Below, piece after piece: positions 630 through 57,052 of a stretch of 64,000 bases of DNA. The stretch comes from Octopus vulgaris (taxonomy: Eukaryota): contig OX597840.1 in the NCBI GenBank assembly GCA_951406725.2, positions 39,060,001 through 39,124,000 of the forward strand, given 5' to 3'. Numbering within the stretch: the stretch's first letter is position 1; each line of letters starts with the position of its first letter. The position numbers and the translations under genes are program-made. The notes below the pieces were generated by a model. That model saw only the letters and a list, made by a program, of their open reading frames with translations. It searched no databases and was not told the DNA's origin.

Positions 630-961
630 GTATACTAGCCATCTTAATATGGCTAACCACTAGGGGAGTGTTACTGTAGCTTTTTAGCCACAGGAGATCA
701 TCGTCTCCAGTTGGCTTTAGACACAACCTTGTGCTCTTTAATGATATTCGCAAAGGGAGGTCATCCACTCTCGAAAACCTAAGTGATACGCATGGACTGC
801 AGGTTTTCGAGAGGGGATGACCTCCCTTTGCGAATATCATTAAAGGGCTGCAGGATTGTGTCTCAAAGCCAGCTGGAGACGATGATCTCCTGGGACTAAA
901 AAGCTACAGTAACACCCCCTCCACCCCTAGTGGTTAGCCATATTAAGATGGCTGAGTATAC
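630..961. mobile_element. Fold-back element with ~150-bp imperfect inverted arms
   Basis: 630-780 is the reverse complement of 801-961 (e.g. GCCATCTTAATATGGCTAACCACTAGGGG / CCCCTAGTGGTTAGCCATATTAAGATGGC); 20-nt loop at 781-800. Confidence 0.85.
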
Positions 962-1023
962 TTTACGTTGTCGAACGCTTACTCTTTACATCTCGCTCAG
1001 AGATTTATTGTTGCTTTATACTA

Positions 1024-1434
1024 TACTCTTTACTCTTTTACTCTTTACTTTTATTTGTTTCAGTCATTTGACTGCGGCCATGCTGGAGCACCGCCTTTAG
1101 TCGAGCAAATCGACCCCGGGACTTATTCTTTGTAAGCCCAGTACTTATTCTATCGGTCTCTTTTGCCGAACCGCTAAGTGACGGGGACGTAAACACACCA
1201 GCATCGGTTGTCAAGCAATGCTAGAGGGACAAACACAGACACACACATACATATATATGTATACATATATACGACAGGCTTATTTCAGTTTCCGTCTACC
1301 AAATCCACTCACAAGGCATTGGTCGGCCCGAGGCTATAGCAGAAGACATTTGCCCAAGATGCCACGCAGTGGGACTGAACCCAGAACCATGTGGTTGGTA
1401 GGCAAGCTACTTACCACACAGCCACTCCTGCGCC
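1024..1434 (-). mobile_element. SINE family A (tRNA-derived head, CORE-like segment, (AAGAGTA)n tail), full length
   Basis: Minus-strand head GGCGCAGGAGTGGCTGTGTGG with A/B-box-like motifs; internal microsatellite; more than 10 near-identical copies in the window. Confidence 0.9.
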
Positions 1435-2053
1435 TATTTTCATTTTTATTTTAATTTTCCTAGGACATATTCTTCAAGATTGAAACTAATAAGATATTTC
1501 TCTAAAAGAGATTCAAGTCTTCAGATACGCCATGTTCATTATGAGAATATTTTCTAAAAAAACATATAAAGAAGGCTGAATGAATTACTTCAAAAAATAA
1601 ATGTAATAAATATATATAACAATATGAGATATCCCTTAATCTCCTGAAAAAAAAATTAGAGAAGACGAACGGTACAGGATGAAGCCAAACAAAACCAAAT
1701 ATCCTAATGATAAAAAAACTGGAAAAAAAGTAGAAAAGCTTTTATATTGTGTCGACGTATGTTAAATATAACACACACGAATCGCTGTATGTGTTTGTGC
1801 GGGTGTATGTGTGAGACTGTGTAGGTCTGTAAGTATTATATACATTGGTATATACATTATTATTATTATTATTATTATTATTATTATTATTATTATTATT
1901 ATTATTATTATATATAGATGGATAGATAGATAAATATATAGATATATATATATGTGTATATGTGTGTATATATATATATATATATATATATGTGTGTGTG
2001 TGTTTGTGTGTCCGTGTATATATATATATATATATATATATATATATATATAT

Positions 2054-53641: not shown

Positions 53642-54343
53642 AAAGCCAATAATGAAAGGACCACGAGGAAGCCAATAATGAAAAGACCACGAGGAAGCCT
53701 ATAATGAAAGGACCACAAGGAAGCCAATAATGAAAGGACCACGGGGAAGCCAATAATGAAAGGACCACAAGGAAGCCAATAATGAAAGGACCACGGGGAA
53801 GCCAATAATGAAAGGACCACGGGGAAGCCAATAATGAAAGGACCATAAGGAAGCCAATAACGAAAGGACCACGAGGAAGCCAATAATAAAAGGACCACAA
53901 GGAAGCCAATAATGAAAGGACCACGGGGAAGCCAATAATGAAAGGACCACGGGGAAGCCAATAATGAAAGGACCATAAGGAAGCCTATAATGATAGGACC
54001 ACGAGGAAGCCAATAATAAAAGGACCACAAGGAAGCCAATAATGAAAGGACCACGGGGAAGCCAATAATGAAAGGACCACAAGGAAGCCAATAATGAAAG
54101 GACCACGAGGAAGCCAATAATAAAAGGACCACAAGGAAGCCAATAATAAAAGGACCACAAGGAAGCCAATAATAAAAGGACCACAAGGAAGCCAATAATA
54201 AAAGGACCACAAGGAAGCCAATAATGAAAGGACCACAAGGAAGCCAATAATGAAAGGACCACGAGGAAGCCTATAATGATAGGACCACGAGGAAGCCAAT
54301 AATGAAAGGACCACGTGGAAGCCTATAATGAAAGGACCAGGAA
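53642..54343. repeat. 26-bp minisatellite, ~27 units (AAGCCAATAATGAAAGGACCACRRGG)
   Basis: Units counted directly. Confidence 0.97.
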
Positions 54344-56781
54344 GTCACGGTACGAGGAACGGAATACTGCAAGATGAAGTAACGAACAAGCGAAGAGAGG
54401 CTGCAATTAAAAGCAGACGGATGGAGGAAAAGACTTGGTAACATAAAAACAAAATGTAATCAAAACGCAGTGGAACGAACAAACGGAAGAATTGAAGAGA
54501 CGAAGGAAAGTGACTTTGATTTTGCCGATATTTTTATCCATGCAAATGAGACAAAGAATGATAATTTTATTGCTAAAACTTGACTTTTGTTGAAAACAAT
54601 TTCTGTTGCTGTCAAGCAGGGAATTAATAACACAATATTCATGGATAGATAAAAATGCTTACAATTATGGTAACTCTGTCTAAAATATACAAGAAAGTCA
54701 TTTGAATATAACATAGCTTTTGTTTTAATCCGCAACATTGATGAATCAGAATCGCTCCATATAAATGTTAGCCGGTCTTTGTTGACAGCGAAATCGGCGT
54801 AGCTTTCATTTTGATTTATTAAGTACGTTCACAAAACTGGTTCGTCTTATTGCTCTTGTTATAAACGACTACTGCTGATGTTCCTATCTCTGATATTATA
54901 GATATTGCTGTTGTTCCTGGTGGAGGTGGCAGTGGTGGCGTTGCGATGTTGTTGTTGTTGGTGGTGGTGGTCGTGGATGTGTTCCTTGTGCTGCTAGTTT
55001 CATTGTCTTTAGCTATCGTGTTTTATATCGCGTCGGAATTGTAGACATAAACACACAGAGTCTGTAATGTTTATATTGTGGAACATATAAATAGATTTCT
55101 ATTCCAGCGACAGTAATTCTGTCTGTTTGGCACAGTCGGAGATCTACACAGCAACACACAACGCACATACATGTATATTTGTATACAGACACGTCTCTAA
55201 GCTTGTATATACACCGCATGTACACCTCCTCCGACACAAATACAGATACACACATTAATCTCCTAAACACACGTCTGTATATAAATGAGAGTACATATGT
55301 GTGTAGGTGTATGTTTGCATGTATGCGCATATGTGTACCTGTGTGCTTTTGGTCCACTATGTAGCAGTATTAACATGAAACGACATATATGAAAAAAAAA
55401 TGTAATATTCGTGAAATCATAAATGTACATGTACATATGTGTGTATGTATGTATGTTTGTGTGCGTGTACGTAGGTGTATATTTGTGTATTTGAGTCTAA
55501 CGAGAAGTCAACTTTGGAGCATGTGCGTGTGTGTCTGTAGCTCACATACTCGCATAAACGCACATATAATTCACATATAAACATATGTAACACGTTTATA
55601 CAAGCATACACACCCGCATATATACATATACATACATATAATAAATACATATATATAGATATATACATACATATATACATAAATACATAAATACATACAT
55701 GTAGAGACATATGTATATATTCATATTTAATTGTATCTGTACCTACACGTGTGTATAACACACCCACAAAGACATATTTACACATAAACAATGGTGCAGC
55801 ACTTTTAAAAACACGTGTACGAATGTATATGAATATATATATATATATGTATGCATACTTGTATATATACATATATCTATATGTATGTATATATCTATCT
55901 GTCTATCTATCTGACTACGCACCTATCTATTTATCCAGCTATATATATATATGTATGCATTTTTATATATATATATATATATATATATATATATATATAT
56001 ATATGTATATATCTATCTGTCTATCTATCTGACTATGTACCTATCTATTTATACATCTATATATATATATATATATATGTCTGTTTATCTATCAATATAT
56101 CTATCTGTGACCACGCTCAAGTTTATACGTTTGTAATTAGATGTACATATATATATATGCAGTATTATAATGCTTATCGATACATAATTTGGCTACAATA
56201 TACGAAGTATATGTGTATACGATTCGATGCTTCTATACGTGAGTGTATACATACATACATACATACATACATACATACATACATACATACATACATACAT
56301 ACATACATACATACATACATATGTGTGTACGAGTGTGACTACGCCTTCTGCGTGACTGTGTAAATACAATTGCGTATATTATAAAGCACAATTTTTGCCT
56401 TTCAAATAGTAATGTATTATTCATGACACATTTGATAAACTGTTTTGATTTAGAACAAGTTCGATGTTTGTTTCCATACAAGACAGCTGGATATAAGTAA
56501 CATAATCACAGAAAATAAAATCATACATCGATATCTGTTCAAAACCTATTGTTGCAGAATTTTTCTGAAAGTTACTTATCCTCCCACCTATAACTAACAC
56601 AAGATTATTAAAAATATTTTCAGCAAAAACAGAGACTCACAAGTTTATTTATAAGAAGTTGACCTTCTACCCGCTATTGTTCGCTAAATGACATTCGTGT
56701 TTGCTCAGAAAGATTCATAAAATGTGATATAGTATCGGACCCTTTTCTGGTTTCCTGAAATTCTGGATTTCAGAAAAACTG

Positions 56782-57052
56782 TATATACACATACGAAGGG
56801 GAGACAAACACCCCCAACCGCCGGAACTGCATCTAGGGACACCGTGTTTCAGGACAATGATCCTGAAACACGGTGTCCCTAGATGCAGTTCCGGCGGTTG
56901 GGGGTGTTTGTCTCCCCTTCGTATGTGTATATAAGCACACAGGATAAAATGTGTCGAAGCTGTCAGGAGGCGTTCGATGCCTCCTAGGGCTATATAACGG
57001 TGGTGTACCCCCTACTGTCACGTTCTTGTTAGATTGACAGTATACAACCATT
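56782..57052. mobile_element. Young fold-back element: perfect 73-bp arms, 6-nt loop, unpaired tail
   Basis: 56782-56854 is the exact reverse complement of 56861-56933; tail 56934-57052 runs into (TA)n. Confidence 0.92.

What the first reader, a model, noticed from the sequence alone, without database searches (positions are those of the whole stretch)
630..57052. Shared 'inverted duplication plus unpaired tail' architecture in eight unrelated elements
Seen: 630-1023, 24605-24897, 32004-32295, 32337-32617, 33799-34115, 36153-36460, 50020-50235 and 56782-57052 share no obvious sequence. Each has 55-150-bp inverted arms with a short spacer and a 60-120-nt tail on one side only, and most abut (TA)n. 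Classical MITEs instead have inverted repeats at both termini. Established: PLE insertions often show an inverted, partial terminal repeat and favour AT-rich or simple-repeat targets. Inference: one mobilisation mechanism produced all eight, and arm identity (100% down to clearly diverged) gives a relative age for each insertion.
Basis: partly seen in the sequence, partly recalled or inferred. Interest (0 to 1): 0.72.

Follow-up and report, generated by a model that had tools for sequence, protein, structure and literature searches.

The report
Head-to-head stubs of Penelope retrotransposons
These eight real DNA hairpins with a one-sided tail are likely the short, back-to-back 3' ends left by Penelope-type jumping genes in AT-rich DNA, a known signature of that class; five show whole or partial predicted self-cutting RNA motifs, while three rest on shape alone.

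Summary
All eight hairpins are real: arms 54-162 nt, 86-100% identical, tails 56-119 nt, no terminal inverted repeats. The refutation test failed: in four sequencing runs the tails of E3, E4 and E5 are as repetitive as their arms (thousands-fold above flanks), and E1's tail recurs in a relative at 57440. Five elements carry type I hammerhead motifs or parts pointing toward the tail (E4, E5 whole; E3, E8 3' half; E1 remnant), the mark of Penelope-like elements (PLEs). Corrections: E1 and E8 are relatives, not unrelated; E1 has no (TA)n flank; E2, E6, E7 lack a hammerhead and stay unproven; arm identity separates only E5 as older. Apexes differ between copies, so hairpins likely form anew at each insertion, probably by two primings at two start sites. 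No autonomous partner was found. New details: tails longer than the published 30-40 nt, apexes near the ribozyme, and a likely natural G3:C8 core swap in the E5 family. Verdict: new members of a known kind.

The parts
629..1023 (+). E1: inverted tail-less copy 629-800 (includes the spacer), direct copy 801-962, tail 963-1023, abutted by a SINE tail
795..802 (-). E1 apex: remnant of hammerhead stem III and cleavage triplet at the 5' end of the inverted copy (inferred from homology)
   Evidence: alignment to the hammerhead-bearing piece 37960-38230
24605..24901 (-). E2: hairpin 24669-24901, tail 24605-24668; no hammerhead found
15605..15690 (+). Second copy of the E2 family between TA runs, without hairpin or tail, ending where E2's short arm ends
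   Evidence: 89/108 identical, z 12.8; nhmmer E 1e-5
31994..32295 (+). E3: hairpin 31994-32197, tail 32198-32295; hammerhead 3' half at 32144-32161
32337..32624 (-). E4: tail 32337-32404, hairpin 32405-32624
32556..32605 (+). Complete type I hammerhead motif in E4's short arm; the long-arm copy lacks one stem I base that many family copies keep
   Evidence: insertion at 32426 table 4
33788..34115 (+). E5: short arm 33788-33890, rearranged apex, long arm 33956-34059, tail 34060-34115
33927..33976 (+). Type I hammerhead fold in E5's spacer; window core has G3 and G8, family majority at position 8 (33939) is C
   Evidence: table 3
36153..36459 (-). E6: tail 36153-36210, hairpin 36211-36459; no hammerhead, no second copy found
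50021..50235 (+). E7: hairpin 50021-50140, tail 50141-50235; no tail-ward hammerhead, no second copy found
56782..57052 (+). E8: perfect hairpin 56782-56933, tail 56934-57052; hammerhead 3' half at 56865-56882 right behind the apex; relative of E1
37960..38230 (+). Relative of E1 with a whole hammerhead motif (core at 37972), no hairpin
   Evidence: 122/170 identical, z 10.2
57440..57581 (-). Relative of E1 that includes E1's tail region
   Evidence: nhmmer E 1.8e-5; alignment
57113..57267 (-). Relative of E1/E8 ending at the short (tail-less) end
   Evidence: nhmmer E 1.5e-6
8398..8603 (-). Ninth, older hairpin-tail element (arms 61/78) with a decayed hammerhead just behind the apex
37434..37700 (+). 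Tenth hairpin-tail element between TA runs (31-nt arms); no tail-ward hammerhead found
35522..35753 (+). Lone hammerhead-bearing piece between TA runs, no inversion
8972..9035 (+). Lone hammerhead motif near simple repeats

Best explanation
The eight hairpins are likely 3' stubs of several Penelope-like retrotransposon families, each made of two heavily 5'-truncated copies joined head to head, one ending in the tail and one ending short of it. Inferred mechanism: the element's GIY-YIG nuclease cuts both strands of AT-rich or (TA)n DNA; reverse transcription is primed from both ends, at a distal start site (copy with tail) and a proximal start site (copy without); both cDNAs stop early, often in or near the hammerhead; their ends are joined through short palindromes or microhomology. 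Shown here: the geometry, repetitive tails for E3-E5 (and E1 by a relative), hammerhead motifs or parts in five elements facing the tail, two alternative 3' ends within a family, copy-specific apexes. Inferred: the enzyme, the double priming, ribozyme activity, and PLE origin of E2, E6, E7.
For: (1), window 31700-34500 on 4 runs from 4 studies: summed contig depth over tail bins is about 3,000-10,000 (E3), 3,000-34,000 (E4) and 28,000-42,000 (E5) times the single-copy level, equal to or above the arm bins; a unique stretch sits at 1-3 times (ratios; not copy numbers). (2) Whole type I hammerhead in E4 and, with one core mismatch, in E5: the only 2 hits of this scan in the real window; shuffled windows give 0-3 per 128 kb. 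3' halves on the tail-ward strand in 3 of 8 (E3, E4, E8), each with 1.5-3.7% chance by shuffling. E1 aligns to a piece with a whole hammerhead. The motifs have the layout of those tabulated for Hydra-clade PLEs, which insert in (TA)n (PMC8557442 supplement). (3) Apexes are copy-specific: depth falls to about single copy at E3's apex (32108), and a joint 33871->33945 with another spacer is seen in 4 of 4 runs. (4) Two 3' ends per family: E2's second copy ends at E2's short-arm end; E8 and the 57113 piece end at E1's short-arm end; the 57440 piece runs into E1's tail. (5) E1's spacer reads as the 5' extension of the tail-less copy, which simple fold-back of a tailed cDNA would not give. (6) Two small stems vary in compensating fashion among 6 rows from 5 loci (50 of 54 cells paired, 3 of 9 pairs change on both sides, 0 of 500 shuffles reach the score). 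(7) Literature: inverted truncated copy plus 30-40-bp tail and (TA)n targets (PMC8557442; PMC3846280); both strands cut and extended, tail = stretch between two start sites (PMC11167929); paired hammerheads on opposite strands 100-700 bp apart (PMC4209133).
Against: No autonomous element was linked: 9 exact 13-14-mers (8 elements plus 37434) are absent from the Naiad/Chlamys/Hydra consensus set, and by eye the 3' ends of three Octopus Naiads and Hydra-1_Obim do not match. No Pfam family reaches its cutoff in 112 of 246 candidate frames scanned. Rfam hammerhead models do not hit E4 or E5 at E<=10, and unconstrained folding of E4's motif does not give stem I. The hammerhead patterns were written after I saw the motifs. 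E2, E6, E7 have no tail-ward hammerhead; E6 and E7 have no second copy in the window and were not covered by reads. Tails (56-119 nt) exceed the published 30-40 nt. E8's short arm stops at an internal TATATA not seen as an end in relatives. Loops of 1 nt (E4, 8447) fit self-priming as well. E1 lacks (TA)n flanks. The stem structure was derived from the same sequences.
Confidence: 0.8

Rival explanations
1. Same PLE origin, but the inverted copy is made by self-priming: one cDNA (or antisense template) folds back at a short palindrome or hammerhead stem and copies itself until it stops at an AT-rich site.
For: Apexes with 1-6-nt loops and palindromes (E4, E8, 8447, E5 inner apex); E8's loop is closed by what could be hammerhead stem II; both E4 arms share a letter at 32556/32472 that about 94% of family depth lacks in run X1, so they came from one template lineage; self-priming is the published hypothesis (PMC3846280).
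Against: E1's spacer belongs to the tail-less copy; tail-less ends occur as free insertions (E2 second copy, E8, 57113 piece); in vitro both strands are extended (PMC11167929).
Confidence: 0.3
2. Some elements (E2, E6, E7) are non-autonomous DNA elements with subterminal inverted repeats, of Crypton or Helentron/HINE type (their anatomy is recalled, not tested), or TA-targeting MITE fragments.
For: No hammerhead in these three; no reads laid on them; TA is also a common DNA-transposon target.
Against: No TIRs; same geometry and context as the hammerhead-bearing five; E2's family also occurs without hairpin and tail, unlike a fixed-length unit.
Confidence: 0.2
3. The whole hairpin-tail unit replicates as a short non-autonomous PLE derivative (retrozyme-like or SINE-like), so arms are older than the insertion.
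For: E5 depth is flat across arms and tail; about 300-nt contigs of one diverged E5 relative appear in 4 of 4 runs; one 83%-like contig spans E3's apex (table 8).
Against: Copy-specific apexes in E3 and E5; arm differences mostly private to one arm (7 of 9); no tandem units as in retrozymes (bioRxiv 10.64898/2026.07.22.740005).
Confidence: 0.12
4. Local fold-back duplications of unique DNA from replication or repair errors, or assembly artefacts.
For: AT-rich, microsatellite-dense region.
Against: Tails and arms are highly repetitive in 4 of 4 runs for E3-E5; arms of 7 of 8 have diverged, unlike an assembly artefact; relatives of E1, E2, E8 lie elsewhere in the window.
Confidence: 0.03

Closest known systems
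Hydra-clade PLEs (Penelope-n_HM, Hydra-1_Obim; Craig et al. 2021, PMC8557442)
   Same: (TA)n targets; type I hammerhead about 60-170 nt from the 3' end with the same core and stem III layout; Penelope-13_HM is listed with a 5'-truncated inverted copy at its 5' end.
   Different: No sequence match found; here both copies are under 200 nt and no frame remains; clade cannot be assigned without the protein.
Penelope/Poseidon PLEs (Adineta Pen2a; Anolis PAc; PMC3846280, PMC11167929)
   Same: Head-to-head inverted repeat with palindromic junction, tail on one copy, AT-rich targets, microhomology at the 5' junction, hammerhead.
   Different: Their tails are about 30-40 nt, here 56-119; their hammerhead overlaps the start of the frame in the pLTR; they show short TSDs, unreadable here in (TA)n.
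Naiad PLEs (Naiad_Obim, Naiad_Ovul, Naiad_Omin)
   Same: (TA)n targets, inverted truncated copy, tail, very abundant 3' ends; lack of a hammerhead would fit E2, E6, E7.
   Different: Naiads lack canonical hammerheads, unlike E3-E5 and E8; the three Octopus 3' ends seen do not match by eye.
Non-LTR retrozymes
   Same: Short, non-coding, type I hammerhead, PLE-derived.
   Different: They are head-to-tail tandem units; these are head-to-head pairs.
MITEs and Crypton-type non-autonomous elements (Eulor5/6; PMC5753468)
   Same: Short, non-coding, fold into hairpins.
   Different: No TIRs at both termini; hammerheads and variable apexes are not MITE features (own knowledge).

Membership tests
Penelope-like elements (EN+) | Frame with telomerase-like RT and GIY-YIG nuclease in an autonomous copy | not testable with these tools
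   No genome held; no Pfam hit at cutoff in 112 window frames; no match to published consensus.
Penelope-like elements (EN+) | Inverted 5'-truncated copy next to the direct copy, head to head | tested here: met
   8 of 8 geometry; orientation fixed by hammerhead parts in 5 of 8.
Penelope-like elements (EN+) | Tail on one copy only, belonging to the element | tested here: met
   E3-E5 by read depth, E1 by a relative, E8's tail aligns to E1's arm; E2, E6, E7 tails not tested; length 56-119 versus 30-40 published.
Penelope-like elements (EN+) | Type I hammerhead on the sense strand near the 3' end | tested here: inconclusive
   Whole in E4, E5; partial in E3, E8, E1; none in E2, E6, E7; Rfam models do not hit; cleavage untested.
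Penelope-like elements (EN+) | Variable 5' truncation | tested here: met
   Depth falls from tail to apex in E3 and E4; alternative junction in the E5 family; hairpin-free copies.
Penelope-like elements (EN+) | AT-rich or (TA)n target | tested here: met
   5 of 8 hairpin ends within 5 nt of (TA)4+ versus 3.0% background; E1 is the exception.
Penelope-like elements (EN+) | Target-site duplication or empty site | tested here: inconclusive
   Flanking repeats are TA only; no joint skipping a whole element among the 15 of 327 joints shown, and rows at repeats were dropped.
MITE (TIR DNA transposon) | Inverted repeats at both termini | tested here: not met
   0-3 identical terminal bases in 8 of 8.
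MITE (TIR DNA transposon) | Uniform unit length among copies | tested here: not met
   E1, E2, E3, E5 families show other ends or apexes; not tested for E6, E7.
Non-LTR retrozyme | Head-to-tail tandem units each with a hammerhead | tested here: not met
   No such tandem array at the eight sites; copies are head to head.
Crypton / Helentron non-autonomous elements | Terminal similarity to an autonomous YR or HUH element | not testable with these tools
   No eukaryotic repeat library or genome available.

The most novel reading that the evidence does not exclude
In this genome PLE reverse transcriptase primes from both cut ends at two family-specific start sites and stalls at the hammerhead, so that 200-400-bp head-to-head stubs, tens of thousands per family, are the main insertion product; one such family (E5) runs on a naturally swapped G3:C8 hammerhead core. 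The stubs would be a genome-wide record that decides between double priming and self-priming, and each would carry its own two-arm clock.
Probability: 0.3. Interest if true: 0.55.

Novelty: new member of a known kind. Interest (0 to 1): 0.33.

Why it matters
The architecture is a published PLE signature, so this is mainly annotation: short hairpin repeats that automatic tools would leave unknown or call MITEs are likely PLE ends. Its value is as material for an open question, how PLEs make inverted copies and tails, which the cited papers call unresolved. Spacer orientation, arm-specific letters and apex positions across thousands of copies could test the two models without bench work. A natural G3:C8 core in a high-copy family would be missed by the usual C3:G8 and U3:A8 descriptors and would argue that the ribozyme is under selection.

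Tried and rejected
Own genome: none held. Whole-window Rfam scan: swamped by miRNA models on simple repeats, 150 of 500 rows seen, no hammerhead among them; focused scan 32337-34115: 0 hammerhead hits in 44 rows. Pfam: 112 of 246 high-complexity frames scanned, none at cutoff. Metagenome pattern scans: 0 matches for an E4 motif; 3 matches for an E5 motif, all in 59-61% GC contigs with no similarity beyond the motif, taken as chance. Craig 2021 consensus set: 0 of 9 motifs; line breaks or divergence could hide a match. Earlier findings of the scan: none. No RNA holder listed for 31900-38400; no RNA run was laid. RNAalifold on 4 pieces gave only a 4-pair stem. One search had the second helix two columns off and is superseded; the nhmmer part failed and was redone. 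Idea that every short arm ends by microhomology with TA: weakened, because the family majority at 34058 removes that match in E5. E4 versus 8447 similarity (59/88, 0 of 1000 shuffles) puts their hammerheads out of register; left unexplained. E8 versus 37972 directly is not significant (503 of 1000); they connect only through E1. MITE and retrozyme membership rejected as tested. Host species not determined: run labels are coded; the cephalopod-like look of the SINEs is recalled, not tested.
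Full report
Setting. The window is 34% GC, dense in simple repeats (139 TRF rows) and in two SINE-like families, with no Pfam family at cutoff in 112 of 246 candidate frames. It looks like animal intergenic DNA; a cephalopod host is my recollection from the SINE sequence and comes from no call. No genome is held.

Observation. All eight hairpins are real: arms 54-162 columns, ungapped identity 86-100%, spacers 1-65 nt, tails 56-119 nt. Twenty shuffles of the repeat-stripped window gave one fold-back in all, against 13 in the real sequence, some of them probably inverted SINE pairs. 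The termini are not inverted repeats of each other. Five of eight hairpin ends touch (TA)4+ within 5 nt (background 3.0%); E1 touches none, and its tail abuts a SINE tail that may have cut it.

Are the tails part of the element? One read-laying was allowed; it covered 31700-34500 (E3, E4, E5) with contigs of four runs from four studies. Relative to single-copy contigs, summed depth in the tail bins is about 3,000-10,000 (E3), 3,000-34,000 (E4) and 28,000-42,000 (E5), as high as or higher than in the arms; the unique stretch 32640-33015 gives 1-3. The tool warns that this is no copy number, but the contrast is three to four orders of magnitude. Diverged contigs run from the E5 long arm to within 2-3 nt of the tail end in 4 of 4 runs. 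For E1, a relative at 57440-57581 continues into the tail and keeps its small stem.

What class? On the strand that ends in the tail, E4 has a whole type I hammerhead and E5 a whole fold with one core mismatch; these are the only two hits of that scan in the real window, with 0-3 per shuffled window. E3 and E8 have the 3' half (chance 2.2% and 1.5% each). E1's inverted copy aligns at 122/170 with a piece at 37960-38230 that holds a whole hammerhead, and begins in its stem III. The extra hairpin at 8447 has a decayed one, and lone motifs lie at 8978, 35575 and 37972. The layouts resemble those listed for Hydra-clade PLEs (PMC8557442 supplement part 2). Against this: the patterns were written after seeing the motifs, Rfam's models do not hit E4 or E5, and E2, E6, E7 have none. 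The hammerheads fix the orientation as head to head with the tail 3'.

E5 core. The window reads G at core position 3 and G at 8. At position 8 (33939) about 94-97% of depth in all four runs reads C (table 3). No change at position 3 is among the 40 of 215 rows shown, so the family core is likely G3:C8, the swap that partly rescues cleavage in vitro (PMC11167929). Cervera and de la Pena report the U3:A8 variant in PLEs. Searches listed no paper on a natural G3:C8 PLE family, but the library is partial and I recall earlier work on such core exchanges that I did not see.

The eight are not unrelated. E1 and E8 align at 109/169 (0 of 1000 shuffles). With the pieces at 37960, 57113 and 57440 they form one group with two small stems that covary (6 rows, 5 loci; structure drawn from the same rows). 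The group shows two 3' ends: a short one after the second stem (E1's inverted copy, E8, the 57113 piece) and a long one with the tail (E1's direct copy, the 57440 piece, weakly the 37960 piece). E2's second copy at 15605-15690 ends where E2's short arm ends and has no hairpin.

Mechanism. Published: an inverted 5'-truncated copy, a 30-40-bp tail and (TA)n targets (PMC8557442; PMC8969392); palindromic head-to-head junctions read as self-priming (PMC3846280); a purified PLE cuts and extends both strands at AT-rich DNA and starts at two sites whose interval is the tail (PMC11167929). My reading is double priming, because tail-less ends occur as free insertions and because E1's spacer continues the tail-less copy, not the tailed one. 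Apexes are copy-specific: depth drops to single-copy level at E3's apex, and the E5 family shows another junction in 4 of 4 runs. In the six hairpins with a hammerhead the apex lies 9, 21, 39, 59, 60 and 88 nt before the predicted cleavage site, which suggests stalling near the ribozyme, but hairpins that keep a hammerhead are selected for this and no null was run. Self-priming stays a live rival (1-nt loops; a letter shared by both E4 arms).

The clock. Of 10 arm positions where the window departs from the family majority (from the 40 rows shown), 1 had no mirror column; at 7 of the other 9 the opposite arm keeps the majority letter, as expected if arms began identical. But 95% intervals overlap: six elements pool at 599/629 (homogeneity p=0.93); E5 is older (p=0.003); E8 is not separable (p=0.06). 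Conversion between arms was not tested.

Known or new. The architecture and its link to PLEs are in print. The families were not found in the one consensus set I could search; Repbase, Dfam and the Octopus vulgaris library on Zenodo (PMC13282606) were out of reach and may hold them, and that paper's supplement was listed but not read. Searches listed no paper devoted to such short stubs in cephalopods. Verdict: new members of a known kind; interest 0.33.

What I saw of each paper: PMC3846280 parts 1-4 of 5; PMC8557442 abstract, passages, sections 7, 11, 15, supplement parts 2, 24, 52, 53 of 59 and three searches; PMC11167929 parts 1-2 of 4; PMC4209133 parts 1-2 of 4; bioRxiv 10.64898/2026.07.22.740005 part 1 of 5; PMC13282606 parts 1-2 of 3; PMC5753468 and PMC8969392 passages; PMC3884650 search listing only. 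Crypton, Helentron and MITE anatomy beyond these passages is recalled.

Noticed in passing
window 8398-8603, 19545-19663, 37434-37700: Three further hairpins of the same build; the first has a decayed hammerhead behind the apex, the second has no clear tail side.
   Followed up: partly
window 8972-9035, 35522-35753, 37960-38230: Hammerhead motifs without inversion, likely plain truncated PLE 3' ends; the last is a relative of E1.
   Followed up: partly
window 57113-57267 and 57440-57581 (minus strand): Two diverged relatives of E1/E8 in the same orientation, 170 nt apart, next to E8; could be a partial tandem (pLTR-like) or separate insertions.
   Followed up: partly
window 33400-33735: Weak hairpin (33430-33535) in a moderately repeated stretch, about 70-220 times single-copy depth in its top bin.
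   Followed up: no
window 1061-1435, 10777-11192, 12381-12791, 27093-27521, 50749-51151 and others: Very abundant SINE-like family with an internal simple-repeat tract; its 33040-33211 copy has about a million times single-copy summed depth.
   Followed up: no
window 13787-14199, 23930-24283, 42567-42784, 43907-44316, 58820-59076 and others: Second SINE-like family of about 240 bp, with a tandem dimer at 13787-14149.
   Followed up: no
window 35953-36084, 49923-50006, 57591-57727, 63786-63970, 8275-8359: Small dispersed repeat of about 130 bp, often beside TA runs.
   Followed up: no
window 45696-46963: Long (ATT)n array holding a repeated non-simple insert of about 130 bp twice (seen in the frames).
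   Followed up: no
window 53637-54339: Tandem array of 27 copies of a 26-bp unit, 92% matches.
   Followed up: no
window 32515-32617 versus 8398-8525: E4 and the 8447 element align (59/88) but with their hammerhead motifs out of register; unexplained.
   Followed up: partly
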